64,000 bases of DNA. Source: an uncultured bacterium (GTDB lineage Bacteria > Acidobacteriota > Thermoanaerobaculia > Multivoradales > JAHZIX01). Below are positions 3,568-53,801 of the stretch, in pieces. The notes under the pieces were generated by a model. That model was not told the origin of the DNA. It worked only from the letters and a program-made list of their open reading frames with translations, and made no database searches. The stretch's first letter is position 1; each line of letters begins with the position of its first letter. The translations under genes and the position numbers were made by a program. The stretch is taken from positions 83,540 through 147,539 of the forward strand of contig CBDUPA010000012.1 of NCBI GenBank assembly GCA_965368975.1. Reading direction: 5' to 3'.

Positions 3568-5250
3568 TCAGGCTCCAGCCTGGTCCAGAATGGAGCCGAA
3601 GAAGATCGACTTGCGGCGCTCCAGCATCTCGGCGATCGCGGCCTCCATGCGCTGGCGCACTTCCTGGCTCAGCTGGCGGACCAGCTCGGCGTCGTCGGCA
3701 GCGGCGGGGCCCTGCGCGTCGAAGTACTCGGCGACCGGCACGGGTTGCAGAAAGCGGGTGTGCCACTTGGAGGGCAGGGGCACGGTGCCCATGGTCGGGG
3801 TAATGGGCAGGTAGGGCCATTCGCTGAAGCGCTTGAACCAGCTCCAGTCGATGCGGCCGAAGATCGGGAAGATCTCGGCACTGCCGACGGTGACGAAGGG
3901 CACGATCGGTGCGCCGTGGCGTAGCGCCGCCTTGACGAATTCGTCGCGCCCGAAGCGCCCCAACTTGTAGGCGTCGCGGTAGGGCGTGAAGGCGCCGCGG
4001 ATGCCCTCGGGAAAGATGGCGAGGAGACCGTCGTTTTCGAGGATGCGGGCGCTGTTGTCGCGGCAGGCGTGCAGGCCGCCGCAGCGCAGCATGTAGGGCG
4101 CCAGGAAGGGAAACTTGACCAGCGTCGGATGGATCAGGAAGCGAGGGTAGCGCTGCAGCTCGCGCACCAGCAGGTGCAGCATCATGACGCCGTCCCAGGG
4201 CTGGTGGCCGCGGTGGACGCCGGCGAGCACCGCGCGCCCGCTGCGCGGCACGTGCTCCAGGCCCGCGACCTCGATGCGCCACCAGGCGTCGTGCAGGAAG
4301 CGGAAGAGCGTCTTGCCCAGGCGGCCGATGTACGCCGGGTCCATGCCGAAGTCGTCGTACCGGTTGGGCAGCGGCGACGCCGCGGAATTCTGCTGTGGGT
4401 CGCCCCGCGGCCCGGCGAAGGTGCGGGCGACCTCGGCGCTGGAGATGGCCGGTTCGACGCCCAGCTCGCGCCGCAACGTCTCGCCGCCGGCGGTCCAGCT
4501 GTGGCGCAGGTAGTCGCTGGCGTCGGCGGAGCGCGGCTGCAGCGGCGACGGCAGGCGACGGCTACCGGCGTGCCGTAGCGCCTGGCGCAGCGGTACGGCG
4601 ACCGGCGGCACGACGTGGTAGACACCGTTCTGCCCGCGCTGCACCCGGCGTTCGAGCAAGGCTTCGAGCGCGGCGGCCAGGTCGTCGAGACTGAGCAGTT
4701 GCACGGTCGGGTCGAATCCGACAGGCACGACAGCCCAGCGGCCGGGGTTTCGTCCGCTGAGCAGACGGGAGACGAGATCGTGGGCACCCGGCACCGGCGT
4801 GGGCGCCGGGCGCAGAATGGACAGGCGCGCGTCGGCGGCCGCGGCCAGTTCCGCGGCGCGCGCTTCCAAGGCCCGCCAGGCGTCGGCGATCGGATTGCGC
4901 TTGCGCGCCGCGCCGCGGTACTGCTCGCTCACCAGGCCCGCGTGGTGGTGGCTGGGAGCGTGGACGGCGGTGCTCGAGATCAGCACCAGGTGGCGCACCC
5001 CTGGTGGTAGTTCGTCGCTCGCCAGCGGTCCGCGCTGGCGCGCGGCGTCGAGCACGGCGGGGTCCCAGCACGGCGGCTGCGCCCACACGAGGGTGCTCGC
5101 CTCGGGGACCTCCTGTGTCGCTGCCGACTCGGGCGCAAACCACTGCCAGCTACCGCCCTGCCGCGCTTCCAGCGCTCGCTGCAGGTGGTCGCGCCAGGCA
5201 CCACGAGGGGCGCTGATGGCGACCGACGGACCGGCTGTGCCTTGGCTCAT
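3568..5250 (-). CDS. fusion protein: degenerate NAD-epimerase/SDR-like N-domain + lysophospholipid (PlsC/AGPAT-type) acyltransferase C-domain
   Basis: 560 aa. The C-terminal half has the acyltransferase blocks HRGHQPWD (H-x4-D) and FPEGIRG. The N-terminal half resembles the distal part of extended SDRs (LVLISSTAVH, ILRP, YHVV), but no GxxGxxG loop is visible. Confidence 0.7.
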   Translation of the reverse strand: MSQGTAGPSVAISAPRGAWRDHLQRALEARQGGSWQWFAPESAATQEVPEASTLVWAQPPCWDPAVLDAARQRGPLASDELPPGVRHLVLISSTAVHAPSHHHAGLVSEQYRGAARKRNPIADAWRALEARAAELAAAADARLSILRPAPTPVPGAHDLVSRLLSGRNPGRWAVVPVGFDPTVQLLSLDDLAAALEALLERRVQRGQNGVYHVVPPVAVPLRQALRHAGSRRLPSPLQPRSADASDYLRHSWTAGGETLRRELGVEPAISSAEVARTFAGPRGDPQQNSAASPLPNRYDDFGMDPAYIGRLGKTLFRFLHDAWWRIEVAGLEHVPRSGRAVLAGVHRGHQPWDGVMMLHLLVRELQRYPRFLIHPTLVKFPFLAPYMLRCGGLHACRDNSARILENDGLLAIFPEGIRGAFTPYRDAYKLGRFGRDEFVKAALRHGAPIVPFVTVGSAEIFPIFGRIDWSWFKRFSEWPYLPITPTMGTVPLPSKWHTRFLQPVPVAEYFDAQGPAAADDAELVRQLSQEVRQRMEAAIAEMLERRKSIFFGSILDQAGA

Positions 5251-5301
5251 GCGTCGTCTTCCTCAACTCCCCGGAAGCTGGCCACAGTCTCCAGCTCGCC
5301 G

Positions 5302-5606
5302 CTAGGCGGCGCTCTCGGCGGCCATCGCGGGTGCAGCGGCCGTCGCAGGTTCAGCAGTGGACGCCGTTCCCGCGTTCTTCAGAATCAGGTCGACGGCATC
5401 CTGGATCGTGCGCAACTGCTGCAGCCGTTCCTCCGGCAGCCCCAGCTGGAAGGCGTAGTCGATGTCGATGCCGATCTCGAGCAGCGACAGGGAGTCGAGG
5501 TCGAGATCGTCGAGAAACGAATCCTGATCGCCGATGGTTTCGGGGTCGATGCTGGTGATGCTGGCAATGATCTCTTTGACCTTGCTCCGAACTTCAGTTA
5601 CGTCCA
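5302..5606 (-). CDS. acyl carrier protein
   Basis: MDVTEVRSKVKEIIASITSIDPETIGDQDSFLDDLDLDSLSLLEI... carries the DSL phosphopantetheine-attachment motif. ATG at 5606 is preceded by GAGGAG. The track's upstream extension to 5640 is not needed. Ala/Thr-rich C-terminal tail. Confidence 0.85.
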
Positions 5607-5808
5607 TAGCAATTCTCCTCAGCCGGTTCCCGGGCCACATGGCCCACAGCGGGCACTCCGCAGAAGTCTCTTGCAGAGAAGGTGCTGAATACTACCAATT
5701 GCTGAAGGTTTGTGGTAGTCGGTTGACGGGATGACGTCGGACCAGGCGTCAGCCAGCCGGTGGACGCCAACCAGGGGACACCCGCCGCGCGCGCCGCGCG
5801 CACTGTGA

Positions 5809-6120
5809 TCACAGCTGTCTCCGGTCGAGTTGCAGGGCCACGGCTACCACCCGCACGACCAGTTGCACCCGACTATTGACCGCTAGCTTGCGGTAGATGC
5901 GTTCGAGATAGGTGTGCACGGTGTGCGGCGAGATACCCAAGTGCTGCGCGATGGTGATCTCCTTGCCATCGTCGAAGACGCCGCGCACAATCTGGAGCTC
6001 CCGCGGCGACAGCGCCAAGATCTCGGCCAACTCGTTCCACTGCGCGATGGAAAAGATCTCGTGACCCTCTGGCTCCCAAGGCTGCGATGGGTCAGGTAGG
6101 ACCCTCTGTGCCTTGGCCAT
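5809..6120 (-). CDS. LuxR/GerE-type helix-turn-helix transcriptional regulator (stand-alone, no receiver domain)
   Basis: 103 aa. LSPRELQIVRGVFDDGKEITIAQHLGISPHTVHTYLERIYRKLAV is a typical GerE HTH. GGAGGGAG Shine-Dalgarno lies upstream of the ATG. Confidence 0.8.
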   Translation of the reverse strand: MAKAQRVLPDPSQPWEPEGHEIFSIAQWNELAEILALSPRELQIVRGVFDDGKEITIAQHLGISPHTVHTYLERIYRKLAVNSRVQLVVRVVAVALQLDRRQL

Positions 6121-6441
6121 GTCTCCCTCCTCTCGATGCTGCCGACTTAGTTGAGACCAGGACCTGCCAAGGAAATAAATATCAGTCTTTCTTTAATCTT
6201 ATAGCAAGACGGATCTCTGTCGAAGTCCCCCGGCCAGACGTCGGCTCTCCAGGGGGCATTTGCATGTGGTCGCATCTACTAGATCCGAGCCCACACTGCG
6301 GTGCCGGGGGCTGCGCCCTCCGGCCCGGTCCCTCGGCGGATCGAGCGTCGCCCCCAGCGAACTGTGTGGACCACATCCCAGACCGTCTCCGCTACAATCC
6401 CCTCGACCCTTCGCCACTTTTCGCAACCGGGGGATTGCTGC

Positions 6442-9306
6442 ATGCCCGAGCCGCTGTCTGTTTTTATTTCCTACTCACAAAAAGACGAGGCCTACCGTGA
6501 GGCTTTCGTCACGCACTGCGCCACGTTGCAGCAGCAAGGCTGGATCGATGCCTGGCACGATGGCCTGATCCCAACTGGTGAGGAATGGGAAGATGCGATT
6601 CTGGGCAAGCTGCGGAGCGCTCAGTTCGTGATGTGCCTGGTGTCGGCGAACTCGCTGGCGTCGGAGTACTGCTGCAAAGAGCGCGACGATGCGTTGGCGC
6701 GCGGTAAGCAATGCCTGGTGATTCCAGTGATTCTGGACGACTGTGACTGGCAGGCTTCACCGTTCGGTCGGCTGCAAGCCTTGCCCAAGCAGGCGGCGAT
6801 TGTGCCGGTGGCACTGTGGGAGAACCAGAATAGCGGTTGGAACAGCGTCATCCAGAGTCTGCGGCAGCTGATCAGGGAATGGTTTCCCACTCGAGCGAAA
6901 CAGGCGGCCTGGCCGAAGCCCAAGGGGCAGGTTGACGTCAACATCCACCGCCTCCCCACTCCCGGCCCGACCTTCGTCGGCCGCACGGACGAACTCGCCC
7001 GCCTCGACGCTGCCTGGACGAATCCGGACGTCCGCATCTTCAGCGTCGTGGCCGCGGGTGGCTTCGGCAAGTCGGCGCTGGTGCACCGGTGGACGCAGCA
7101 GTTGCAGGCGGACGGCTGGCGGGGCGCGGAGCGGGTGTTTGCGTGGTCGTTCTACTCTCAGGGGACGGCGGAAGCCCCGCAAGCTGGAGAAAGAGGGTCT
7201 CGACGCACGGCGGCGTCGGGGGAGCCGTTCTTGATCGAGGCGTTGGAGTGGTTCGGATGGGAGGGAGGGATACCCGCTTCAGCGAACAAGAAGGGCGAAG
7301 TCCTCGCCGACCTCGTGGCATCGACACGCACGCTCCTGATCCTGGACGGCCTGGAACCACTGCAACAGAGCAGCGAACTCCCCGGCGAGGCGGGCCACCG
7401 ACTGCTCGACCCGGGGATCAAGGCGTTCTTGCGCCAGCTGGCGACGAGTAACGCCGAGGGATTGTGCGTGCTGACGACACGGCTGCAAGTTGCCGACCTG
7501 GCGTCGCGGGAGGCTTCGACGGCGCCGGTGCTGCGGTTGGAGAAGTTGGAGAAGGCGACGGGCGCGGCGTTGTTGGAGGCGGTGGGGGTGACGGGGCCTC
7601 GGAAGGAGCTGGAGCGGGTGAGCAAGGAGTTCGAGGGGCATGCGTTGACGTTGCAGCTCTTTGGGACCTACCTGGTGAGGTACCACGGCGGCGGCATCAA
7701 GCACCGGACGGAGGTGCCGTCGCTTGTGACCAAGAAGGGGTTCCAGAATCCGGTAGAACGGGTGTTCAAGGCGTACGTCGAGCAGATGACGCCGGAGCAG
7801 TTGCGGGTGTTGTTGCTGCTCGGGCTGTTCGACCGTCCCGCCGAGCCGGAGGCGGTGGAGGCGGTACGGGCGGAGCCGGCGATTGCGGGGCTGACGGAGG
7901 GGATCAGCGCGGCGGACGAGGAGGCGTGGGTGGATGCGGTTGTCGAGCTGGAAGACTTGGGGTTGTTGCGGCGGGAGGGAGGAGCCTTGGACGCTCACCC
8001 TCTGGTGCGCGAGAGCTTCGGCGCGCGGTTGCAGACGGAGCACGCGGAGGCGTGGCGACAGGGCAATCGGCGGCTGTACGAGTATTACCAGGCGTCGACG
8101 GACGAGTTCCCGGAGACGCTGGAGCAGATGCTGCCGCTGTACACGGCGGTGGTGCATGGGTGTCGGGCGGGGTTGGAGCAGGAGGCGCTGCACGAGGTGT
8201 TGTTCAAGCGCATCAAGCGGGCTAGCGAATTCTACAGCACCAAGAAGCTCGGCGCCTTCGGCTCGGAGCTGACGGCGTTAGCGGCGCTGTTCGAGCGGCC
8301 CTGGGACCGTCCCGCCGTCGCGCTGACGGCAGCGGCCCAGGCGTGGCTGCTCAACCAGGCCGCCTTCGTGCTGCGCGCCCTGGGGCGGCTGTCGGAGGCG
8401 GTGGCGCCGATGGAGGCGGCGCTGGAGCTCGGCATCAAGCAGGAGAACTGGAAAGCAGCCGCGACCCGTGCCAGCAACCTCAGCGAGCTGACGCTGACGC
8501 TGGGGCGGGTGGCGGATGCGGTCGAGTTCGGGGCGCGCGGCGTCGAGTTGGCGGATCGGAGTGGGGATGAGTTCCAACGCATGGGTAACCGCACCACCCA
8601 GGCCGACGCGCTGCACCAGGCCGGCGTAATCGAGGCCGAATCAGGCGACGCCAGCGCGGCGCGCTTCGCCGAGGCCGAAGCGCTGCAGGCGGAGCGGCAG
8701 CCGCAGTACCCGAAGCTGTACTCGGTTCAGGGCTACCAGTACTGCGACCTGCTGCTGACGCAGTGCGCGCGGGCTGTGGACGTCTCGGCCGTGGACCTCT
8801 CGGCGGGGGAGCGGGCGGAGAAGCTCGACGCGGTGCGGCAGCGGGCGGAGACGACGTTGGCGTGGTTGACCCAGGCAGGGAAAGACGTCCTATCTGTCGC
8901 CCTGGACCACCTGACGCTCGGCCGGGTCCACCTGGCCCTGGAGCAGGTGAGCGAAGCGGCCCTGGCGCTGGAGCGGGCGGTGGCGGGGCTGCGGCAGGCT
9001 GGACACGAGTGGTTTTTACCCGCTGGCCTGTTGGCCCGCGCCGCGCTGCACCGCCACACCGGCGACGGCACGTCCGCCCGCCGTGACCTCGACGAAGCGC
9101 TGGAGATCGCCGAGCGGGGATCGATGCGGCTGCACGAGGCGGATGCGCACCTGGAGTGGGCGCGGTTGTTGTTGTCGGAGGGGAAGGTCGAGGAGGCGCG
9201 GGGGCACGTGGCGGTGGCGCGGCGGATTGTGGACGAGACGGGGTATGGGCGGCGTCAGCCTGAGATTGCGGAATTAGAGGAAAGGTTGGCGGTAGGTTCT
9301 GGGTAG
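6442..9306 (+). CDS. TIR domain - STAND (NB-ARC-like) NTPase - TPR repeat protein
   Basis: N-terminus MPEPLSVFISYSQKDE...VMCLVSANSLASEYCCKE is TIR-like. Walker A is VVAAGGFGKSALV and Walker B-like is TLLILDGLEPL. The C-terminal ~450 aa is TPR-like. Start moved from 6301 to ATG 6442 so the protein begins at the TIR strand. Confidence 0.8.
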   Translation: MPEPLSVFISYSQKDEAYREAFVTHCATLQQQGWIDAWHDGLIPTGEEWEDAILGKLRSAQFVMCLVSANSLASEYCCKERDDALARGKQCLVIPVILDDCDWQASPFGRLQALPKQAAIVPVALWENQNSGWNSVIQSLRQLIREWFPTRAKQAAWPKPKGQVDVNIHRLPTPGPTFVGRTDELARLDAAWTNPDVRIFSVVAAGGFGKSALVHRWTQQLQADGWRGAERVFAWSFYSQGTAEAPQAGERGSRRTAASGEPFLIEALEWFGWEGGIPASANKKGEVLADLVASTRTLLILDGLEPLQQSSELPGEAGHRLLDPGIKAFLRQLATSNAEGLCVLTTRLQVADLASREASTAPVLRLEKLEKATGAALLEAVGVTGPRKELERVSKEFEGHALTLQLFGTYLVRYHGGGIKHRTEVPSLVTKKGFQNPVERVFKAYVEQMTPEQLRVLLLLGLFDRPAEPEAVEAVRAEPAIAGLTEGISAADEEAWVDAVVELEDLGLLRREGGALDAHPLVRESFGARLQTEHAEAWRQGNRRLYEYYQASTDEFPETLEQMLPLYTAVVHGCRAGLEQEALHEVLFKRIKRASEFYSTKKLGAFGSELTALAALFERPWDRPAVALTAAAQAWLLNQAAFVLRALGRLSEAVAPMEAALELGIKQENWKAAATRASNLSELTLTLGRVADAVEFGARGVELADRSGDEFQRMGNRTTQADALHQAGVIEAESGDASAARFAEAEALQAERQPQYPKLYSVQGYQYCDLLLTQCARAVDVSAVDLSAGERAEKLDAVRQRAETTLAWLTQAGKDVLSVALDHLTLGRVHLALEQVSEAALALERAVAGLRQAGHEWFLPAGLLARAALHRHTGDGTSARRDLDEALEIAERGSMRLHEADAHLEWARLLLSEGKVEEARGHVAVARRIVDETGYGRRQPEIAELEERLAVGSG

Positions 9307-9470
9307 GGGCGTCCCCATGTGGGCGCCCTGCGGCGGAACGCCGCATCCGGATCCGGATCCGGAGGGCGCAATGCCTTGCGCCCCTACGACCCTCCCGCCC
9401 CCCGAACGATACGCATGCGGGATGACATTACCGATGCGGACGTTCGGGGTCCCAGGTTTGACCCTCCTTC
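9303..9470. repeat. palindromic GC-rich repeat element, degenerate copy A
   Basis: Contains GGAGGGCGCAATGCCTTGCGCCCCTAC (9361-9387), identical to 18183-18209. This is followed by ...CCGAACGATACGCATGCGG...GCGGACGTTCGGGG, related to the centres of copies B and C. A degenerate GTAGGGGCG...GGCGCCCT hairpin at 9303-9329 overlaps the TIR gene stop codon. Confidence 0.7.
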
Positions 9471-9528
9471 CACCCCGGTGATAGCGTCCAAACGACCCTA
9501 CGCCCAAGGAAACCGAAGGAAAAACCCA

Positions 9529-10647
9529 GTGCCCGAATCCTCCGAATCCCTAGCCACCTCGACCGACACGCTGGACCTCACCGTCCACCGCGACAAGTCG
9601 AGCGAATTCCGCACCATGACGGGCGAGCCGGCGGTGGAGGCGAGCATCATCTTGATCGCGCATCCGGAGCACCAGCGCATGGGCACGCGCTACCGCCTGG
9701 TACCGGGGGAGATGCTGGAGGTCGGGCGGTCGTCGAAGGCGGGGGTGAGTCTGCCGGAAGTGGCGGCGTTGTCGAGGGTGCACGCGCGGCTGCAGCATCG
9801 CGGGGAGTGGGTGACGCTGGAGGATCTGGGGTCGACCAATGGCACCTACATCAACGGCCGACGCCTGCACGAACCGACGGCGCTACACAGTGGCGATCGC
9901 TTCCAGGTCTCGTCGGTGCACTTCAAGTTCCTGCACGAGAAAGACGTCGAGGCGGCGTACCACGAGGCGATTTACAACCTGGTGGCGCACGACGGGTTGA
10001 CCGAGGCCTACACCAAGCGCAAGTACGAAGAAGAAGCGGCGCGCGAGCTGGCGCGGGCGGCGCGGCACCGGCGGCCGTTGTCGTTGATCCTTCTCGACCT
10101 CGACCACTTCAAAGACACCAACGACACCCACGGCCACCTGGCCGGCGACGCGCTGCTCAAGCACTTCGCGGTGGTGGTGCGCCGGCACTTGCGGCCGGAG
10201 CAGATCTTCGCCCGCGTGGGCGGCGACGAGTTTGTGGTGCTGTCGCCCGAGATGACGGCGGCGCAGGCGGAGCGGCTGGCCGAGCGGCTGTGCCACAAGC
10301 TGGCGGCGTCGCCGCTGGAGTATGAAGACGTGCGGCTGACGATCTCGGTGTCGTGCGGGGTCGCCGAGTATGCGATGGACATGGAGCGGCCCGAGGATCT
10401 CTACGCCGCTGCCGACCGGGCGCTGTACAAGGCCAAGCTGGCCGGCCGGGGACGCGCCGTGCGGGCGGAGACGAATTCGGGCGCCATGCCGCCGCTGCCG
10501 GGCTCGGACCGCCGGTTCGAGAGCCACGGCTTCGAGGCCGGCTCCGGCAACGACGCGGAGGAGTCTTCGACCGACGTGGGCGAAGCGAAGGAAGACGCCG
10601 CCCAGGATGCGGCTGGCCGCGACCCGCAAGCGGATACGCGGGGCTGA
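9529..10647 (+). CDS. FHA domain - GGDEF domain protein (putative diguanylate cyclase)
   Basis: FHA: LEVGRSSKAGVSLPEVAALSRVHARLQHRGEWVTLEDLGSTNGTYINGRRL. GGDEF: LSLILLDLDHFKDTNDTHGHLAGDALL...ARVGGDEFVVL. Start is uncertain: GTG 9529 has GAAGGA upstream, and ATG 9616 is the alternative. The track start at 9319 would translate the repeat element. Confidence 0.8.
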   Translation: MPESSESLATSTDTLDLTVHRDKSSEFRTMTGEPAVEASIILIAHPEHQRMGTRYRLVPGEMLEVGRSSKAGVSLPEVAALSRVHARLQHRGEWVTLEDLGSTNGTYINGRRLHEPTALHSGDRFQVSSVHFKFLHEKDVEAAYHEAIYNLVAHDGLTEAYTKRKYEEEAARELARAARHRRPLSLILLDLDHFKDTNDTHGHLAGDALLKHFAVVVRRHLRPEQIFARVGGDEFVVLSPEMTAAQAERLAERLCHKLAASPLEYEDVRLTISVSCGVAEYAMDMERPEDLYAAADRALYKAKLAGRGRAVRAETNSGAMPPLPGSDRRFESHGFEAGSGNDAEESSTDVGEAKEDAAQDAAGRDPQADTRG

Positions 10648-10673
10648 CGGCGAGCTTCGCCGAGGACGTCGAC

Positions 10674-12473
10674 ATGCTGCGCGAACTCCATGTACGCAAT
10701 CTCGCCGTGCTCGCCGGAGCGGCGGTGGATTTCGCCGCCGGCTTCAATGTGCTCACCGGCGAGACCGGTGCCGGCAAGTCGATCGTCGTCGACTGCCTGG
10801 AACTGCTGGCCGGGGGCCGTGCCAGTGCCGAGCTGATCCGAACCGACGCCGACAAGCTGATGGTCTCGGGCGTCTTCGAACCGGCCGGCAACGGCTGGAA
10901 GGTGCTGCTCGAAGAGGCCGGGCTGGACGCCGACGGGCGCGAGTTGCTGATCCGCCGCGAGGTCAGCCGCGAGGGGCGCAACCGGGTGTATGTGAACGAC
11001 CAGCCGACGACGCTGCGTCTGCTCGCGGACCTGGCACCGTCGCTGCTGCGCATCCACGGCCAGCGCGACGAGCTGGGGCTGATCTCGCCCGAGCTGCAGC
11101 GCGCCTGGCTCGATCGTGCCGGCGGCGACGAGGCCGGCCCACGGCTCGACGCGGTCGCCGACGCCCACCGCGCCTGGCGCCGGCTGGCACGGCGGCTCGA
11201 GAGCCTGACGGGTGACGAGGAGCTGCGCCGCCAGCGTCTCGACTTGCTGCGCTTCCAGGCGTCCGAGATCGACGCTGCTGAGGTGCGCGCCGGTGAGGAG
11301 GACGAGCTGCGCCAGGAGCGCGACCAGCTGCGCCACCGCGAGGCGGTGGTGGCGGCGCTGTCCGAGCTGGTCGAGCGGCTGTACGAGGGCGAGACGGCGG
11401 TGGTCGACGAGCTGGCCAAGAGTGGCCACCGGCTGCAGGACATCGGCGAGTGGGAGCCCGCGGCAGCGAGCTGGACGACGGAACTCGAGGAGCTGCGCAT
11501 CCGCGCCGAGGAGGTGGCGCGCGGCGTGCGCGAGCGCCTGGACGGCATGGAGAGCGACCCGCGACGCCTCAACGCGGTGGAGGACCGGCTGTCGACGCTC
11601 GAACGCCTGTGCCGCAAGTACCATGGCACGACCGACGACATCCTGGTGCGGCGCGCCGAGATCGCCGCCGAGCTCGAAGAGCTGGAAGGCGACGCCGAGA
11701 ACGTCGAGGAGCTGGAGGCCGAGGCGGCGGCGGCGCTGGACGTCTATCGCAAGGCCGCGCTGGCGCTGTCGGCGGCGCGCGTGCGCTGGGGACAGGGGCT
11801 GGCCGAGCGCATGACCGCCGAGCTGGCCGACCTGGCGCTGGCGCAGGCGCGGCTGGAGGTGCGGCTGGAGCGCAGGCCACAGCCGAGCAGTCCGCTGCTC
11901 GTCGACGGCGTGGCGGTCGACTTCTCGGCGGCGGGTGTCGACCAGGTCGCATTCTACTTCGCGCCCAACCCCGGCGAGGCACCGCAGCCGCTGTCCAAGA
12001 TCGCTTCTGGCGGTGAGCTGTCGCGCTTGTCGCTCGCTTTGCAGCTCGCGGCGCGGGCCGAAGGCATGCAAGATCGACCGACGCTGGTGTTCGACGAGGT
12101 CGACACCGGCATCGGCGGTGCCGAGGGTGCGGCGCTGGGGGCCAAGCTGCGACGCCTGGCGCGCGGTGGCCAGATCTTTGCCGTCACCCATCTGCCGCAG
12201 GTGGCCAGCTGCGGCGACCACCACCTGAAGGTGAGCAAGGAAGTGCGTGGCGGCCGGACCTTCGCCGAGGTCGAAGCGCTGAGCGACAGTGCCCGCGTCG
12301 ACGAGGTGGCGCGCATGCTCGGCGGCGAGACGCTGACGGACCTGTCGCGCCAGCACGCGCGCGAGCTGCTGCGGGATGGCCGTGAGCTACAGCGGGAAGG
12401 CACAGAGGGCGATCCGCCCTCCAGCAGCGGCAAGAAGCGCCCACGAGCCAAGCGCGCCGCCGCCGGGAGCTGA
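10674..12473 (+). CDS. recN: DNA repair protein RecN
   Basis: MLRELHVRNLAVLAGAAVDFAAGFNVLTGETGAGKSIVVDCLELLAGGRA... (Walker A), long coiled-coil middle, and C-terminal SKIASGGELSRLSLALQLA signature with LVFDEVDTGIGG. Start set at ATG 10674; the track's extension from 10353 was dropped. Confidence 0.9.
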   Translation: MLRELHVRNLAVLAGAAVDFAAGFNVLTGETGAGKSIVVDCLELLAGGRASAELIRTDADKLMVSGVFEPAGNGWKVLLEEAGLDADGRELLIRREVSREGRNRVYVNDQPTTLRLLADLAPSLLRIHGQRDELGLISPELQRAWLDRAGGDEAGPRLDAVADAHRAWRRLARRLESLTGDEELRRQRLDLLRFQASEIDAAEVRAGEEDELRQERDQLRHREAVVAALSELVERLYEGETAVVDELAKSGHRLQDIGEWEPAAASWTTELEELRIRAEEVARGVRERLDGMESDPRRLNAVEDRLSTLERLCRKYHGTTDDILVRRAEIAAELEELEGDAENVEELEAEAAAALDVYRKAALALSAARVRWGQGLAERMTAELADLALAQARLEVRLERRPQPSSPLLVDGVAVDFSAAGVDQVAFYFAPNPGEAPQPLSKIASGGELSRLSLALQLAARAEGMQDRPTLVFDEVDTGIGGAEGAALGAKLRRLARGGQIFAVTHLPQVASCGDHHLKVSKEVRGGRTFAEVEALSDSARVDEVARMLGGETLTDLSRQHARELLRDGRELQREGTEGDPPSSSGKKRPRAKRAAAGS

Positions 12474-18182: not shown

Positions 18183-18328
18183 GGAGGGCGCAATGCCTTG
18201 CGCCCCTACGACCCGCGCCCCCGCCCGAACGTTACGCATTCGGGAGATCCACCAGGCCGCGGAGTTCGTGCCGTGCGTAGCGTTCGGGGGAAGGGTGGTT
18301 CCGTAGGGGCGCAGGGGTCTGCGCCCTC
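18183..18328. repeat. palindromic GC-rich repeat element, copy B (~146 bp)
   Basis: Terminal hairpins are GGAGGGCGCAATGCCTTGCGCCCCTAC (18183-18209) and GTAGGGGCGCAGGGGTCTGCGCCCTC (18303-18328). The interior arms are ...CGCCCGAACGTTACGCA / TGCGTAGCGTTCGGGGG.... The whole unit is an imperfect long inverted repeat. Confidence 0.8.
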
Positions 18329-19373: not shown

Positions 19374-19503
19374 GGAGGGCGCAGACCCCTGCGCCCCTAC
19401 AGACCCGCGCCGCCGCCCGAACGTTACGTGGTCCGAATCGTTCATGCCGTGCGTTCCGTTCGGGGGTTGGGGTGGGTCGTAGGGGCGCAAGGCATTGCGC
19501 CCT
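19374..19503. repeat. palindromic GC-rich repeat element, copy C (~130 bp)
   Basis: GGAGGGCGCAGACCCCTGCGCCCCTAC (19374-19400) and GTAGGGGCGCAAGGCATTGCGCCCT (19479-19503). These are the exact reverse complements of copy B's two terminal hairpins, and the interior is related to copy B. The element overlaps the 3' end of dusA. Confidence 0.8.
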
Positions 19504-23439: not shown

Positions 23440-23624
23440 TCGACTTGCGTCAGTTACCGACCTCGACTACACTTTCGTCGATCCAGTAATATCTTTCCCG
23501 CAACCGGCTTGAATTCTGTCTTTCATGGATCACCGAATACTGGAAACGCCCGTGCGCTGTGATCCGCAGGGCGACTGTTGACGCATTGGCACCATGCTAC
23601 AGTGACCTAGGAGGACGAGACACC

Positions 23625-24902
23625 ATGACGGCATCCCATCCGGAACCGCTGCCGCTGACCTTGATTGCCGAGTATCTTGACGGATCCGCCGACGCCAACT
23701 CATTCTGGGACGATTGGGTGTCGGTTCTGCTGGAGAACCCGCGGTTCGCGGCCAGTTTCCACCGCCTCTTGGGGCTGAGCGAAGAGTTCAGCTTGCCGCA
23801 GCTGAGCCGGGTCGCCTACGAGGGCCCGGAGGCACGCGAGCTATTGCAGCGTCTGCGCTGCTTGCCGCCAGCGAGGCAGTGGCGCGAGGCACGCAATGCC
23901 AGTTGGGTGGTCAATTGGTGTTTGGTGCGCCTCTTGCTGCGAGAGAATCTCCGCATCACTCCGCAGGACGTGCACGAGGGCGGCCGCCTGGCGCGTTTGG
24001 CCCTGATGCTGGTGCGACGCTTGCCGGCTGCAGTCTACGGCACTGAGCGCTTGGCCGAACTGAGGGCACTGGCCTGGGCCAATCTGGCCAATGTCTATCG
24101 CGTGCGCGGTGATCTCAAGCAGGCCGACGCTCTCATGCAGCGTGCACTGCGTCGCCTCGGAGGAGAGCCGCTGCAAGAGCCCGGTCTGCGAGCGGATCTG
24201 CACCTGATTCAGGGTTCCATGCTCTACGATCAGCGGCAACTCGGTGCCGCCCGGATGGCCTTCGAGCAAGGCTTGAATCTCTGTCAGCACCCGCTTCGGC
24301 AAGAAACGGCCGCTATGCTTCAGATGCGGCTGGCCGCTCTGGACTACGAGGTGGCACACCTAGACAGTGCAATTGAGAGGACCGAGGCGGCCCTACGACT
24401 CATCGGCAAGTCTGGGGCTACGCGGCTCTTTGTGCAAGCGAGCTTCAATCTTGCGGATCTGTTTGCCCGAGCGGGCCGCTTCGACGAGGCGATGGCGCAG
24501 CTGTCTCAGCATCGGCAAGCCCTGCAAGTCTATGGGACGCCGAGTGATCAGTGCCGCGCCAACTGGTGCGAGGGGATCATCCACCAGGGGCTTGGCGAAT
24601 TTGGCGCGGCAGTGAAATGCTACGCGCGCGCAAAAAAAGCTTTCCTTTCTCTGGATTTGTGGTACGATGCAGCCATTGTCACGCTGGAGTTGGCTAGCTT
24701 ACTGCTCGAACACGGCAAAACAGCTGAAGTCAAGCAACTAGCGCTCGACACGCACAAGCTCTTTGAAATCCAGGACGTCGACCGCGAAGCTCTTGCAGCG
24801 CTAGAGCTCTTCCGCGAGGCAGCGACGCAGGAAGCCTTGTCGATCGAGATGCTGCAACGCATCGAAGCCGACTTCCGGCAAGCCTGCCGTGTCTCCGCTT
24901 AG
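23625..24902 (+). CDS. TPR repeat protein, function unknown
   Basis: 425 aa from ATG 23625, with AGGAGG 8 nt upstream. TPR-like repeats: LRALAWANLANVYRVRGDLKQADALMQRAL, QGSMLYDQRQLGAARMAFEQGL, NLADLFARAGRFDEAMAQL, GIIHQGLGEFGAAVKCYARA. Confidence 0.6.
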   Translation: MTASHPEPLPLTLIAEYLDGSADANSFWDDWVSVLLENPRFAASFHRLLGLSEEFSLPQLSRVAYEGPEARELLQRLRCLPPARQWREARNASWVVNWCLVRLLLRENLRITPQDVHEGGRLARLALMLVRRLPAAVYGTERLAELRALAWANLANVYRVRGDLKQADALMQRALRRLGGEPLQEPGLRADLHLIQGSMLYDQRQLGAARMAFEQGLNLCQHPLRQETAAMLQMRLAALDYEVAHLDSAIERTEAALRLIGKSGATRLFVQASFNLADLFARAGRFDEAMAQLSQHRQALQVYGTPSDQCRANWCEGIIHQGLGEFGAAVKCYARAKKAFLSLDLWYDAAIVTLELASLLLEHGKTAEVKQLALDTHKLFEIQDVDREALAALELFREAATQEALSIEMLQRIEADFRQACRVSA

Positions 24903-37638: not shown

Positions 37639-40362
37639 GTGGTCGTATGTCTCTTGGAGACAGTCGTTCGAAGAGCAGTGACAGCTGCTGCGATTCTGAC
37701 GCTTGTCGTGGGACTGGGCTTACAGGCACAGTCAGGGTCTGCTAACGCCCCGAAAGGGGCCCAGTTTGTCTTCGTGATCGATGATTCTGGCAGCATGGGG
37801 CAGCCGGAACACGGGCTTACAGACCCCGATCGGCTGGCTGTGTTCGCGGTGCGTGCTCTACTGGGTGTGCTCGACGACCGGGACTGGGCGACAGTTGTTC
37901 GTCTCAATGGCCCTCGCGAGGGTGAAGATCCGCTATCGCTGGCGCCTTTGGGAGATGCGCACCGAACCCGGCTGATGGAGGTTCTGCAGCTGGACGCGGA
38001 ACTGGCGCGATATGAGGGGGAGTACACGCCTTGCCGAAGGGCTCTACAGGCCGTCAAGCGGATGCTCGAAGGGTCGGATAGGCAGAACATTTCCCAAGTC
38101 GTGATCTTCCTTTCGGATGGCAAGTGCACACCGGTAACGCAAGGGGAAGATCGTGTCCTTGACTTTGCTGAAGGTTTGCGCTCGGCTCAGGGAGAGAATC
38201 CGCGCCTTCAGTTCTACTTTCTGCGATTCGAAGGGCAAGAGTACACTCCGGGGCTGGAGCAGCTGGCCGAGAACACCGGAGGTTCGGCGATCGAGGTCCG
38301 ACAGGGGGATCCGACGCGGATCCTCTACACCTTTGCGCAAGCGCTGGCCCGCTCGCAGGGCTACGAACCTCTGATCCTCAGTCCGAGCGTGCGGCAGCTG
38401 CCGGCCTACCGGGGGGCCAACCGAGTCCGCTTGCTGGCAATTGCGCGCGGCGATCAGGGAGAGCCGTTGGCGGTGCGCGTCCGGCGTCGTCAAGGGGGCG
38501 GAGTCGATACGGTGCCGATCGAGCAGGGCACCCACAGATTCCCGGGGCAACAGGGGTATCGCTTCGCTTCGGTGCAGTATCGGCCGGTCGAGCAGCCGGT
38601 GGAGGTGGAGGTGGTCGGAGCCGGCGAGGATTGGGAGGTCGTTGCCTTGCCGGAATATCACCTGGCGGTCAACCTGGCCTTGCGTCGTGGTGGCTGTGAG
38701 GAGGAAGGCGAGACCCTGGGTGGCGTCACGCCAGCCGGAAGCGGATTGTGTGCGGTGATCGAGCTAGTCAATGAGGAAGGGCGCGTGGTGGGCAAGGAGG
38801 TGACCACCGGGCAGTTACAGGCTTCCTTGCGTCAGACAGTCCCGGGTGGTTCCGAGCCTCGGCTGATTTCGGCAACGGAAGCTTCCTCGGATCTCGCCAG
38901 CTTCCGCTTGGATATACAAGGGCTCGAGAGCGGTCACCACGAGTTTCAGGGGCAGGTCCAGTTGGGGACCCAGGTTGACGATCCCCGAGTTCTGACGGGC
39001 ACTGCGCGAACACTGCAAGCAGTAGATCTGGCGATCCGGCCGGTTCCGAGTGAGCTGCGACTCGATCCAATCCAGCCCGGTGAGGTCAGCCGTCAGAGCC
39101 TGGAGATCCATGGCAACTTCGCGCCGTCGGAAGCCGTGGTCTCCTTGGAAGAGGGAGAGAATCTGCCGAGCTGCGTGACCTTAAGCTTTGACGGCAAGGA
39201 GCTTGGAGAGACCATCTCGATTCGTCCAAAGCAGGGCTACTGGGTCGAATTTCGGGCGGCCAAAGCCTGCGGCGAGACGCAAGGTCGACAGGTCGATGCG
39301 CGCCTGCGCCTGGAGCTTGCGGGACTCGATTCGATTGCCATACCGGTAACCTTTCGCTTGGAGAACAACGCCCAACGCCGAGATCCGACAACAGTGGAAT
39401 TGCGGGCAGGTACGACGAGAGAGGTCGATGTAGCAATCCCCGCGGCCTGGAATTCTTTCGACGTACAAGCAACCGCCGCCGAGAATGCGCAGGGCGAAAC
39501 CTATGAGTTGCTGCGCGCTGAGATTCTGAGCGAGCCTCCGATTCCCTCTGAAGACGGTGAAGCCTCAGGTCGCCAGCGAGTCGAGGGATTGACCGCTGAA
39601 CAGGGACTGTCTCTGCAACTCGTAGCTTCGGGCTGTTGCAGGTCCGGGACCTACGCCCTCGATGTCTACCTGTGGCCCAAGGTCGGTGCCACGACCATCG
39701 TACCGCTGGTCGTCGAAGTCGAGGCCAGCTGGTGGACCTGCTACGGCTCTTGGGTGCTCGCGGGGACCATCGGTCTCTTGGCTGGCTTGCTGGTGTTCTA
39801 TGTCCTGAGCATGTTCAGTCATACCACCTTGCTCGACCGAGACCAGCTGAGCGCTCGTCTAGTGCCCTTACGCTGGCCTCGCCATCGCGGCGCACCGCAA
39901 CCCGCCAGCAATCGCAGTAGTGACCGAGAAGAGGTCGAAGACATTGTGCACAGTGAAGTCTCTAGCCTGCAGCGGGTGCGGAGCTGGCTACGAGCCAATC
40001 CCCTGGTCTTTGGCTCGCCTGGGCGAGAGTACAGAGAGACGGCCGAACTCTTTTTGACCACTGATCTCGGGCTAACCTCGATTTCCCTGGTATTGGAGCG
40101 GGATGTCGTCGACCGACTCCGGACGAGCGAGGAGATCGACACTTGGGAAGAGGGGAGGCTCTTCGCGCGCGCCGGCAATCCCGTCTCCTTCTTTGTCGTG
40201 CGCGGTCCGAGCAAGAAAGTTCAGCAGATGACTCCGGAAGGCTGGTTCGGCAAGGTCGATGACCTGACTGTCGAGCAGGTTTCCAAAGGACAAAGATTCA
40301 TTCGTCAGCTTTCCATCAAAGAGCGCAAAGAAGGCGCTGTGGCCGGGTGGGTTCTGGAATAG
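37639..40362 (+). CDS. exported von Willebrand factor A (vWA) domain protein with single C-proximal TM helix and cytoplasmic tail
   Basis: Signal/anchor: RRAVTAAAILTLVVGLGLQAQS. vWA with MIDAS: FVFVIDDSGSMGQ...; VVIFLSDGKCTP. About 500 aa of beta-rich repeats follow. TM helix: WWTCYGSWVLAGTIGLLAGLLVFYVLSMF. The tail is ~200 aa. Confidence 0.75.
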   Translation: MVVCLLETVVRRAVTAAAILTLVVGLGLQAQSGSANAPKGAQFVFVIDDSGSMGQPEHGLTDPDRLAVFAVRALLGVLDDRDWATVVRLNGPREGEDPLSLAPLGDAHRTRLMEVLQLDAELARYEGEYTPCRRALQAVKRMLEGSDRQNISQVVIFLSDGKCTPVTQGEDRVLDFAEGLRSAQGENPRLQFYFLRFEGQEYTPGLEQLAENTGGSAIEVRQGDPTRILYTFAQALARSQGYEPLILSPSVRQLPAYRGANRVRLLAIARGDQGEPLAVRVRRRQGGGVDTVPIEQGTHRFPGQQGYRFASVQYRPVEQPVEVEVVGAGEDWEVVALPEYHLAVNLALRRGGCEEEGETLGGVTPAGSGLCAVIELVNEEGRVVGKEVTTGQLQASLRQTVPGGSEPRLISATEASSDLASFRLDIQGLESGHHEFQGQVQLGTQVDDPRVLTGTARTLQAVDLAIRPVPSELRLDPIQPGEVSRQSLEIHGNFAPSEAVVSLEEGENLPSCVTLSFDGKELGETISIRPKQGYWVEFRAAKACGETQGRQVDARLRLELAGLDSIAIPVTFRLENNAQRRDPTTVELRAGTTREVDVAIPAAWNSFDVQATAAENAQGETYELLRAEILSEPPIPSEDGEASGRQRVEGLTAEQGLSLQLVASGCCRSGTYALDVYLWPKVGATTIVPLVVEVEASWWTCYGSWVLAGTIGLLAGLLVFYVLSMFSHTTLLDRDQLSARLVPLRWPRHRGAPQPASNRSSDREEVEDIVHSEVSSLQRVRSWLRANPLVFGSPGREYRETAELFLTTDLGLTSISLVLERDVVDRLRTSEEIDTWEEGRLFARAGNPVSFFVVRGPSKKVQQMTPEGWFGKVDDLTVEQVSKGQRFIRQLSIKERKEGAVAGWVLE

Positions 40363-40408
40363 AGCTCGAGGCCGGTCCGAAAACAAAAGCAAAATTGCGA
40401 GGTTGAAC

Positions 40409-53649: not shown

Positions 53650-53801
53650 AGATCTGTAGATTTCTGTGCTGGATTTCCGGGAATGGCTCCACTAAGAAGA
53701 AACGCGAGAACACGTCGATTCCCGGACCAACGGCTGTACTCAATCTCGGCGGAAAAATTCAGCTTGGCTTTCTGAGTGGCTTAGATCATGAAGACGGGCC
53801 C

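What the first reader, a model, noticed from the sequence alone, without database searches (positions are those of the whole stretch)
6442..9306. TIR-STAND-TPR protein next to a solo LuxR regulator
The architecture is a TIR domain (FISYSQKDE...SEYCCKE), a P-loop NTPase (GGFGKSALV; LLILDGLE) and a long TPR array. This is the bacterial counterpart of NLR-like immune sensors; TIR effectors degrade NAD+ or make signalling nucleotides. It is transcribed divergently from a 103-aa LuxR-type HTH across a 320-bp AT-richer region. It ends exactly in a copy of the palindromic repeat. It is a single-gene candidate defence locus, separate from the main island.
Basis: partly seen in the sequence, partly recalled or inferred. 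Interest (0 to 1): 0.5.

Follow-up and report, generated by a model that had tools for sequence, protein, structure and literature searches.

The report
Single-gene TIR-STAND-TPR immune-type sensor
This gene encodes a bacterial counterpart of plant and animal NLR immune receptors (a TIR enzyme head, an ATP switch and a TPR sensor); the type is already known, it belongs to a large unnamed family whose head is swapped by recombination, and the LuxR gene next door is probably unrelated.

Summary
Window 6442-9306 (+) encodes a 954-aa protein with three parts: a TIR domain (Pfam TIR_2 E 1e-16), a STAND NTPase with intact Walker A, Walker B, sensor-1 Arg and winged-helix His, and a MalT-like TPR sensor.

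The NTPase is neither NB-ARC nor NACHT by Pfam thresholds. Its nearest solved relative is PH0952.

The family is large: 2,652 clusters at 50% identity with E<=1e-30. It is centred on Acidobacteriota and also occurs in Chloroflexota, several other bacterial phyla and methanogen-related archaea.

On a conserved chassis the N-terminal head varies: TIR in 63 of 77 members, otherwise SEFIR, PNP, Schlafen, Mrr, EAD7 or HNH. The nearest ortholog shows a recombination breakpoint exactly at the TIR/NTPase junction (p = 8e-10).

No neighbouring gene is conserved. There was no defence-island signal in 12 sampled loci, no phage-borne copies, and no match to any PADLOC Avs, bNACHT or TIR-NLR model.

The LuxR adjacency is real but not conserved (1 weak hit in 79 loci). 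Of five LuxR homolog contexts, four places (three look-ups) adjoin R-body genes and one heads an ACP operon, as in the window.

The catalytic Glu (E80) is present, with a one-residue deletion beside it.

Most likely this is an abortive-infection NADase sensor: a new member of a known kind.

The parts
6442..9306 (+). Complete gene for the 954-aa TIR-STAND-TPR protein (stop codon TAG at 9304-9306)
   Evidence: ORF list and translation. It is identical to database protein P0001. The AlphaFold2 model has mean pLDDT 80.7 and pTM 0.65.
6454..6897 (+). TIR effector domain (residues 5-152); GC 0.589 and GC3 0.73, against GC3 0.86-0.88 in the rest of the gene
   Evidence: Pfam TIR_2 E 9.9e-17 and PADLOC ThsB1 E 2e-31. 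A profile of family TIR domains matches solved TIR domains: Cat1, AtTIR, ROQ1, RPV1, RPP1, AbTIR and RUN1. Composition.
6661..6681 (+). TIR alpha-C catalytic motif S74-E-Y76-C-C-K-E80; the E80 codon is 6679-6681. The motif is one residue shorter than in all closest TIR relatives (Y-C-Y-D-I-E).
   Evidence: Alignments. The same YCCKE motif is kept in the nearest ortholog P0002. Coordinates.
6961..6963 (+). Inferred recombination breakpoint (codon 174), just after the conserved R-L-P motif that opens the chassis
   Evidence: Synonymous differences within identical codons against ortholog L087: 51 of 90 upstream and 90 of 400 downstream, Fisher p = 8e-10. The maximum-likelihood breakpoint is residue 174.
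6934..8046 (+). STAND nucleotide-binding oligomerisation module (NBD-HD-WHD, residues 165-535). Motifs: Walker A 7051-7080, Walker B 7333-7356, sensor-1 'TTR' 7468-7482, GxP-like 'GHALTL' 7633-7665, winged-helix 'LDAHPLVR' 7987-8010.
   Evidence: Invariant columns G206, G207, G209, K210, D302, G303, E305, R347, H519, P520. Coordinates. Top Foldseek hits are PH0952 (6mfv, E 2.6e-10) and RPP1 (E 5.8e-7). Pfam AAA_16, NACHT and NB-ARC are all below their cut-offs.
8047..9303 (+). Arm plus TPR sensor (residues 536-954); the most conserved part of the family
6121..6441 (.). 321-bp divergent intergenic region (GC 0.604). It holds a -10-like TACAAT at 6393-6398 and a GGGGGA ribosome-binding-like site at 6429-6434, both shared with ortholog L087.
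   Evidence: Sequence, composition and comparison of the 85 nt upstream of the start codon with L087. The only promoter-scan hit in this gap is on the minus strand, at 6223-6196.
9303..9392 (+). Array of four hairpins that starts at the stop codon and ends in a REP-like palindromic unit (core 9361-9392). There is no U tract.
   Evidence: Inverted repeats, repeat family D4 and RNA fold of -58.3 kcal/mol with z = -4.25. No Rfam match.
5809..6120 (-). Neighbouring 103-aa solo LuxR/GerE HTH gene. It is listed because the finding names it, but it is probably not part of the system.
   Evidence: GerE E 1.9e-15. It is not conserved next to homologs of the TIR gene. LuxR homolog contexts are RebB clusters or ACP operons.

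Best explanation
The gene encodes a self-contained NLR-like (STAND) sensor-effector, most likely an abortive-infection immune protein.

Proposed mechanism (inferred, by analogy with solved STAND and TIR systems):
1. At rest the NTPase module holds ADP and is clamped shut by the arm and the TPR sensor.
2. A trigger, most probably a conserved phage protein, binds the TPR sensor and releases the clamp.
3. Nucleotide exchange opens the module and lets it oligomerise.
4. Oligomerisation brings the N-terminal TIR domains together, forming composite active sites around Glu80.
5. These sites hydrolyse NAD+, which arrests or kills the infected cell.

What is shown and what is inferred:
- Shown here: the three-module anatomy, the intact switch and catalytic motifs, family-wide effector exchange on a conserved chassis, and a recombination breakpoint at the module junction.
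- Inferred: the trigger, the oligomerisation, the NADase activity and the immune role.
For: Anatomy
- TIR, NTPase and TPR domains are confirmed.
- Across 31 homologs, Walker A K210, Walker B D302/E305, sensor-1 R347 and winged-helix H519 are invariant.
- The Glu of the TIR catalytic motif is present and is kept in the nearest ortholog, although the TIR domain as a whole is only 62% identical.

Immune-type modularity
- In 77 members the N-terminal module is TIR in 63, SEFIR in 3, PNP_UDP_1 in 2, Schlafen/HATPase_c_4 in 2, Mrr in 1 and EAD7 in 1.
- HNH heads appear in P0020, P0041 and P0061.
- Many pairs with 82-88% identical chassis carry unrelated N-terminal modules.
- This meets the effector criterion (at least 50% of members with effector domains) that Lee et al. 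2026 (PMC13581612, Methods) used to call STAND clades defence-associated.

Mosaic history
- Against the nearest ortholog, synonymous divergence is saturated in the TIR segment (pS 0.72) and moderate in the chassis (pS 0.30).
- The breakpoint falls at residue 174 (p = 8e-10).

Distribution
- The distribution is patchy and cross-domain, with up to three paralogs per genome.
- The family is large: 2,652 clusters at 50% identity with E<=1e-30.

Precedent
- An E. coli P4-satellite TIR-STAND-TPR protein ('TIR-NLR') protects against phages, and its relatives swap TIR for SIR2 or Mrr (Rousset et al. 2022, PMC9122126).
- The PH0952 crystal structure and MalT mutagenesis show arm and sensor autoinhibition (PMC6468293).
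Against: - Genomic context gives no support. In the window the gene sits among core genes.
- In 12 homolog loci the 87 neighbours gave only generic kinase and AAA+ matches to PADLOC. By Pfam they are histidine kinases, Ser/Thr kinases, response regulators, glycosyltransferases and housekeeping genes.
- No PADLOC Avs, bNACHT or TIR-NLR model matches the protein.
- No family member was found in 50,697 phage records or in 2.9 million IMG/VR contigs.
- The TPR sensor is the most conserved part. This fits one conserved ligand but does not say that the ligand is viral.
- The catalytic helix carries a one-residue deletion relative to every close TIR relative, so activity is not certain.
- Nothing here is experimental.
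Confidence: 0.6

Rival explanations
1. It is a non-immune STAND switch. The conserved TPR sensor reads an endogenous or environmental cue (metabolite, peptide or stress signal), and the TIR domain lowers NAD+ to impose dormancy or programmed death. This would resemble the conflict and apoptosis-like systems proposed for bacteria with complex life styles.
For: - There is no defence-island association in the window or in 12 sampled homolog loci.
- The sensor is the most conserved module across phyla.
- The closest solved relatives, PH0952 and MalT, are regulators that sense small molecules.
- The family is abundant in large-genome Acidobacteriota, with several paralogs per genome.
- Kaur et al. 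2020 (PMC7159879) place TIR-AP-ATPase-TPR proteins in such systems.
Against: - Swapping of the head among TIR, HNH, Mrr, PNP and Schlafen modules is typical of immune effectors, not of regulators.
- The recombination mosaic points to conflict-driven turnover.
- A validated anti-phage protein has the same architecture.
Confidence: 0.2
2. The TIR domain makes a signalling nucleotide (a cADPR isomer or an ADPR adduct, as in Thoeris or plant TNLs) that activates an effector encoded elsewhere, rather than depleting NAD+.
For: - The best PADLOC match of the TIR domain is a ThsB model (E 2e-31).
- Plant TNLs with the same domain order signal in this way. The fold match to RPP1 covers TIR plus NTPase, 577 aligned columns.
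Against: - No gene is conserved next to family members, so no partner effector is evident.
- In relatives the TIR head is replaced by directly toxic enzymes (HNH, Mrr), which argues that the head itself is the terminal effector.
Confidence: 0.1
3. The TIR-STAND gene is under the control of the divergent solo LuxR regulator, and the two form one unit, as the finding's title suggests.
For: - They are divergent across a 321-bp gap.
- LuxR, the gap and the TIR segment share lower GC (0.59-0.62) than the chassis (0.68-0.70).
- The closest LuxR homologs also sit about 300 bp from a divergent cluster.
Against: - Only 1 weak LuxR hit in 79 homolog loci, and it lies 5 kb from the gene.
- The divergent partners of LuxR homologs are RebB clusters, not STAND genes.
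- One homolog heads a LuxR-ACP-ketosynthase operon, matching the window's LuxR-ACP-acyltransferase order.
- The intergenic DNA does not align with that of the homolog loci.
- The nearest ortholog contig is too short to show its neighbour.
Confidence: 0.1
4. The gene is a decaying or inactive copy.
For: - There is a one-residue deletion in the catalytic helix relative to all close TIR relatives.
- The nearest ortholog carries a frameshift near residue 646 in two sequencing runs.
Against: - The window ORF is intact over 954 codons, with all switch motifs.
- dN/dS is 0.12-0.22 against the ortholog.
- The shortened motif restores the canonical W-x-x-x-E spacing of plant and animal TIRs and is conserved in the ortholog.
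Confidence: 0.07

Closest known systems
E. coli P4-satellite 'TIR-NLR' (Rousset et al. 2022, PMC9122126)
   Same: It is a single gene with an N-terminal TIR, a central STAND NTPase and C-terminal TPRs. Relatives replace TIR by other effectors (SIR2, Mrr). The proposed logic is the same: TPR sensing, oligomerisation, then TIR NADase activity.
   Different: That protein is experimentally anti-phage and is carried in a satellite hotspot. This one is chromosomal among core genes. It has no phage-borne relatives and no match to the PADLOC defence models beyond the TIR domain.
Avs (antiviral STAND) families Avs1-21 and the 198 defence-associated STAND clades of Lee et al. 2026 (PMC13581612)
   Same: The tripartite layout of effector, STAND and TPR-like sensor. 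The family meets their effector-domain criterion for a defence clade.
   Different: No PADLOC Avs model matches. Their genomic-context criterion is not met in my small sample. The trigger is unknown. I could not map the protein onto their clade tables because no supplement is held.
[quoted passage not shown]
   Different: Those proteins are transcription factors with DNA-binding effectors. Here the effector is a TIR enzyme.
Plant TIR-NB-ARC-LRR receptors (RPP1, ROQ1)
   Same: The same TIR-then-NTPase order. The fold match spans both modules (7crc_B, E 5.8e-7). The TIR profile matches ROQ1, RPP1 and RUN1. The aromatic-x-x-x-Glu spacing is the same.
   Different: The sensor is TPR, not LRR. The NTPase does not reach the Pfam NB-ARC cut-off (12.2 against 23.5 bits). 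No EDS1-type downstream pathway is known in bacteria (from background knowledge, not tested here).
Thoeris ThsB
   Same: It is the best defence-database match for the TIR domain (PADLOC PDLC00420, E 2e-31).
   Different: ThsB is a stand-alone TIR protein that works with an adjacent ThsA-type effector. Here the TIR domain is fused to its own sensor and no partner gene is conserved.

Membership tests
TIR domain superfamily | Match to a TIR profile above the curated threshold | tested here: met
   Pfam TIR_2 scores 62 bits against a cut-off of 28, E 9.9e-17. A profile of family TIR domains hits 30 solved TIR-domain chains (of 32 matches) at E<=0.01.
Catalytically competent (NADase-type) TIR | Conserved Glu in the alpha-C motif S-x-[WFY]-[CI]-x-x-E | tested here: met
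   S74-E-Y76-C-C-K-E80. The Glu column is invariant in the 16-sequence alignment once a one-residue gap is placed in the query. The motif is kept in ortholog P0002. Caveat: the indel lies directly next to the Glu.
Catalytically competent (NADase-type) TIR | Measured NAD+ cleavage | not testable with these tools
   This needs a biochemical assay.
STAND NTPase | Walker A Lys, Walker B Asp, sensor-1 Arg, helical domain with a GxP-type motif, and a winged-helix domain with a conserved His | tested here: met
   K210, D302/E305, R347 and H519 are invariant; 'GHALTL' stands where PH0952 has 'GHPLML'. There are fold matches to PH0952 and RPP1.
NB-ARC (AP-ATPase, Pfam PF00931) | Score at or above the Pfam gathering threshold | tested here: not met
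   The query scores 12.2 bits against 23.5. Thirteen of 15 family members give weak hits, best E 9.4e-5. PGAP-annotated Nostoc 'NB-ARC' proteins are 24-26% identical.
NACHT (Pfam PF05729) / bNACHT | Score at or above the Pfam gathering threshold, or a PADLOC bNACHT model hit | tested here: not met
   The query scores 13.6 bits against 26.7. All 15 members give weak hits, best E 9.5e-8. There is no PADLOC bNACHT hit.
Avs / AVAST and TIR-NLR as modelled in PADLOC-DB v2 | HMM match of the NTPase-sensor body | tested here: not met
   Only ThsB (the TIR part) and one weak TPR model matched at E<=0.1.
Defence-associated STAND clade (criteria of Lee et al. 2026) | At least 50% of members carry an annotated immune effector domain | tested here: met
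   63 of 77 members carry TIR; others carry PNP, Schlafen, Mrr, SEFIR or EAD7.
Defence-associated STAND clade (criteria of Lee et al. 2026) | Enrichment of known defence genes within 5 kb | tested here: inconclusive
   In 12 loci with 87 neighbours there were only generic PADLOC hits: protein kinase (PD-T4-6/mad6), MkoA and RtcR/PspF-type AAA+. The sample is small and PADLOC was used instead of DefenseFinder.
Thoeris | A ThsB TIR gene adjacent to a ThsA-type effector gene | tested here: not met
   No neighbour is conserved in 79 loci. The window neighbours are LuxR and FHA-GGDEF.
Anti-phage defence system | Protection against phage infection | not testable with these tools
   This needs an experiment.

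The most novel reading that the evidence does not exclude
This may be the type example of a very large, unnamed STAND clade (at least 2,652 clusters at 50% identity) that lies outside defence islands and outside phages. It is centred on Acidobacteriota and shared with methanogen-related archaea. Its strongly conserved TPR sensor may read a single, non-viral or host-derived cue, while the killing head is continually exchanged by recombination at a fixed junction. In that case the family would be a general cell-autonomous death or dormancy switch rather than a phage pattern-recognition receptor.
Probability: 0.15. Interest if true: 0.6.

Novelty: new member of a known kind. Interest (0 to 1): 0.36.

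Why it matters
TIR-STAND-TPR proteins are the bacterial side of the NLR story. A validated example exists in E. coli, and recent work sorts prokaryotic STANDs into hundreds of clades.

This locus adds three things:
- an abundant family from poorly studied soil and sediment phyla that a 2023 defence database does not detect;
- nucleotide-level evidence, within one pair of close relatives, that the effector head is exchanged by recombination exactly at the TIR/NTPase junction;
- a caution that a neighbouring regulator is not evidence of a functional link.

If the conserved sensor's ligand were found, it would extend the catalogue of what bacterial NLR-like receptors recognise to Acidobacteriota and archaea.

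Tried and rejected
- Sequence search of the whole protein against PDB found nothing useful.
- Pfam on 15 NTPase regions gave AAA_16, NACHT and NB-ARC all at sub-threshold levels, so I dropped the attempt to call it NB-ARC or NACHT.
- I looked for a conserved partner gene by clustering all ORFs from 79 loci and found none.
- I tested defence-island association with PADLOC and Pfam on 87 neighbours; only generic hits appeared.
- I searched phage genomes, IMG/VR and plasmids for mobile copies. There were none in phages or viral contigs, and only partial domain hits on plasmids.
- I considered that LuxR, the promoter and the TIR segment arrived together as a low-GC cassette. This is untestable because the ortholog contig has only 85 nt upstream, and the intergenic DNA does not align with the LuxR-homolog loci.
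- I considered that the LuxR gene is a split-off MalT C-terminus. I rejected this because it is upstream, divergent and not conserved.
- I tried to identify the source genome through exact-protein look-ups of P0001 and P0121; neither is on record.
- Supplementary tables of Lee et al. 2026 are not held, so clade assignment was impossible.
- There are no Rfam families (searched 5000-11000) and no tRNAs in the window.
Full report
**1. What is there**

The ORF list shows a stop-to-stop frame at 6301-9306 (+). The ATG at 6442, preceded by GGGGGA at 6429-6434, gives 954 aa. This protein is identical to database entry P0001. Homologs begin at the same 'M..P.VFISYS' position.

- Pfam gives TIR_2 for residues 7-112 (62 bits, cut-off 28) and TPR_12 (38.6 bits, cut-off 30.1). 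It gives only a sub-threshold AAA_16 match for the P-loop region.
- PADLOC gives a strong ThsB-type TIR hit (E 2e-31) and nothing for any Avs, bNACHT or TIR-NLR model.
- NCBIfam gives only weak AfsR- and MalT-type TPR similarities.

The divergent neighbour at 5809-6120 (-) is a 103-aa GerE/LuxR HTH protein. The gap is 321 bp with GC 0.604.

**2. Structure and class of the switch**

An AlphaFold2 model built on 31 homologs is confident (pLDDT 80.7, pTM 0.65).
- Foldseek against PDB ranks PH0952, an archaeal STAND with a TPR sensor, first (E 2.6e-10). The plant TIR-NLR RPP1 is next (E 5.8e-7, 577 aligned columns).
- A profile of the NTPase region finds only PH0952 (E 0.005) and plant CNL P-loops (E 0.1-0.5) among solved chains.
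- Lisa et al. [quoted passage not shown]

On 15 family NTPase regions, AAA_16, NACHT and NB-ARC all give weak hits (best E 1.4e-9, 9.5e-8 and 9.4e-5). The query is below every gathering score. This is a separate STAND lineage nearest the PH0952/AP-ATPase/MalT side.

The switch looks functional. Invariant in 31 sequences are G206, G207, G209, K210 (Walker A), D302, G303, E305 (Walker B), R347 (sensor 1, 'TTR') and H519, P520 (winged-helix 'DAHPLVR'). H400 of the GxP-like 'GHALTL' motif is nearly invariant.

**3. The TIR catalytic residue**

A profile of family TIR domains aligns to solved TIRs: Cat1, AtTIR, TLRs, ROQ1, RPV1, RPP1, AbTIR and RUN1.

In most family members, and in the closest stand-alone TIR proteins, the motif is S-x-[FY]-[CI]-x-x-x-E. 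The query has S74-E-Y76-C-C-K-E80, one residue shorter. This is the canonical aromatic-x-x-x-Glu spacing of plant TIRs.

With the one-residue gap placed in the query, the Glu column is invariant. The nearest ortholog keeps 'DYCCKERD' although its TIR domain is only 62% identical overall. The indel beside the Glu is a caveat.

**4. The family**

- The word-indexed search returned at least 2,698 relatives, with full-length hits at 42-53% identity.
- The exhaustive search with the chassis alone (residues 165-954) found 2,652 clusters at 50% identity with E<=1e-30, and 5,307 with E<=1e-10.
- In species-representative genomes at least 550 loci encode relatives. They come mostly from Thermoanaerobaculia and Holophagales. 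Others come from Chloroflexota, Nitrospinota, Proteobacteria, Bacteroidota, Deferribacteres and Methanosarcinales/Methanophagales/Methanoperedens archaea. Single MAGs hold up to three paralogs.
- The window's own genome is not among them, and exact look-ups of its proteins failed. An Acidobacteriota origin is only a guess from the best hits and the high GC.

**5. Effector exchange**

Pfam on the N-terminal parts of 77 members gives TIR_2 in 63, SEFIR in 3, PNP_UDP_1 in 2, HATPase_c_4 in 2 (one of these also matches SLFN_AlbA_2), Mrr_cat in 1 and EAD7 in 1. HNH heads occur in P0020, P0041 and P0061.

Among 307 proteins that have both parts, many pairs have chassis 82-88% identical but N-terminal modules with no detectable similarity or only 23-25% identity. 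Examples are P0005/P0078, P0018/P0086, P0023/P0032 and L009/P0012.

Domain by domain, the TIR is the least conserved part (query against others 0.26) and the arm/TPR-N region is the most conserved (0.60).

**6. A recombination junction in this very gene**

The nearest relative (P0002; contigs L087 and L088 from two Logan runs) is 86% identical in the chassis but 62% in the TIR domain.
- By the Nei-Gojobori method, the synonymous difference is 0.72 in the TIR segment, which is at saturation. It is 0.30 in the chassis. dN/dS is 0.12 and 0.22 respectively.
- Counting codon differences only where the amino acid is identical gives 51 of 90 for residues 1-165 and 90 of 400 for residues 170-645 (Fisher p = 8e-10).
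- The two-rate maximum-likelihood breakpoint is residue 174, window nt about 6961. This is right after the conserved R-L-P motif where all family alignments begin.
- GC3 is also lower in the TIR segment in both genes (0.73 and 0.63, against 0.88 and 0.86).

Because synonymous sites are affected, relaxed selection cannot explain the pattern. The head and the body have different histories.

**7. Context**

No neighbour is conserved. Clustering all ORFs of 79 loci gives only the family itself as a recurrent cluster.

A LuxR homolog appears once, weakly and 5 kb away, in 79 loci. I looked at five contexts of the closest LuxR homologs (64-70% identity).
- Three look-ups (P0289, P0287 and P0292; four places) sit about 300 bp from divergent RebB (R-body) gene clusters.
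- One heads a LuxR-ACP-ketosynthase operon.
- One lies beside unrelated genes.

The window has no RebB homolog. On LuxR's own strand it has ACP (5302-5640) and an acyltransferase (3568-5250), like the ACP-operon case. The LuxR adjacency is therefore best read as coincidental.

The other window neighbours are FHA-GGDEF, RecN and a Sua5/YrdC-family protein.

Eighty-seven neighbours from 12 family loci gave only generic PADLOC matches (protein kinase, MkoA and AAA+ activators). By Pfam they are a mix of two-component, kinase, glycosyltransferase and housekeeping genes.

No copies occur in phage genomes or IMG/VR. Plasmids hold only partial relatives: Nostoc 'NB-ARC' proteins at 24-26% identity to the NTPase, and Acaryochloris TIR proteins at 45-48% identity to the TIR domain.

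**8. Gene ends**

Upstream, a -10-like TACAAT (6393-6398) and the ribosome-binding-like site are shared with the ortholog.

Downstream, four hairpins run from the stop codon to 9385 (-58.3 kcal/mol, z = -4.25). The last is the core of a REP-like unit that recurs in inverted pairs at 18.2 and 19.4 kb. The stop codon lies in a degenerate arm (GTAGGGGCG), not in a clean copy. There is no U tract and no Rfam family.

**9. Interpretation**

The anatomy, the intact motifs, the family-wide and locus-specific effector exchange, and the validated E. coli TIR-NLR precedent (PMC9122126) make an NLR-like abortive-infection sensor with a TIR NADase head the best explanation (confidence 0.6).

By the published effector criterion the family would count as a defence-associated STAND clade. 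The genomic-context criterion is not supported in my small sample.

Rivals:
- a non-immune death or dormancy switch (0.2);
- a signalling TIR with an unlinked effector (0.1);
- LuxR control of the gene (0.1);
- a decaying gene (0.07).

**10. Novelty**

The architecture has been known in bacteria since Leipe et al. 2004 (as cited in PMC7159879 and PMC9122126). It has been validated once, and large STAND surveys exist.

This is a new member of a known kind, from an under-studied lineage and missed by PADLOC v2. The recombination junction and the absence of defence-island context are modestly interesting. Interest 0.36.

Noticed in passing
window 5809-6120 (-); loci L082, L083, L084, L086: The closest homologs of the solo LuxR (64-70% identity) were checked in five look-ups. 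Three of them (four places) sit about 300 bp from divergent clusters of RebB (R-body) genes, one heads a LuxR-ACP-ketosynthase operon, and one lies beside unrelated genes. The window has no RebB homolog, and the TIR gene occupies the place that reb genes hold elsewhere.
   Followed up: partly
window 18183-18225, 18264-18327, 19374-19416, 19440-19503 (and 9361-9392): A REP-like palindromic unit (GGAGGGCGCAATGCCTTGCGCCCCTAC and its inverse) occurs as inverted pairs about 100 nt apart in intergenic DNA. Each pair encloses a conserved CCGAACG...CGTTCGGGG segment. It may be a small mobile or regulatory element.
   Followed up: partly
window 53802-63900 (-): A defence island: a GajB-like UvrD helicase (53802-55967), a 2,165-aa DruE-like DEAD/MZB helicase (55964-62461; PADLOC DruE E 3.6e-99), and the C-terminal part of a type IIG restriction-methyltransferase that is cut by the window end (62458-63900).
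   Followed up: partly
window 37639-52258 (+): Four consecutive giant genes (907, 1,291, 1,351 and 1,315 aa) have lower GC (0.60-0.63). One has a Tubulin_2 domain and one a DEAD helicase domain. None has a PADLOC match. This may be an uncharacterised system next to the defence island.
   Followed up: no
window 52263-53649 (-): Two ORFs have strikingly low GC (0.48-0.51) in a 66% GC window. They lie between the giant-gene cluster and the UvrD-like gene and are probably foreign DNA.
   Followed up: no
L087 and L088 (Logan SRR16995658 and SRR16995659), around codon 646: The nearest ortholog of the TIR-STAND gene carries a frameshift, after which the TPR region continues in another frame. It appears in contigs from two runs. 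It is either a real pseudogene or a shared assembly error.
   Followed up: partly
L080 (Acaryochloris marina plasmid pREB8, NC_009933.1, record 46718-57146): The TIR domain most similar to the query's (47.6% identity) lies in a 365-aa protein encoded between a 1,293-aa NB-ARC protein and a TPR protein. The same three modules are thus encoded as separate adjacent genes on a conjugative plasmid.
   Followed up: no
window 23559-24902 (+): A 447-aa protein has a MalT-like TPR region (TPR_MalT E 9.6e-12) but no NTPase. It has no PADLOC match.
   Followed up: no
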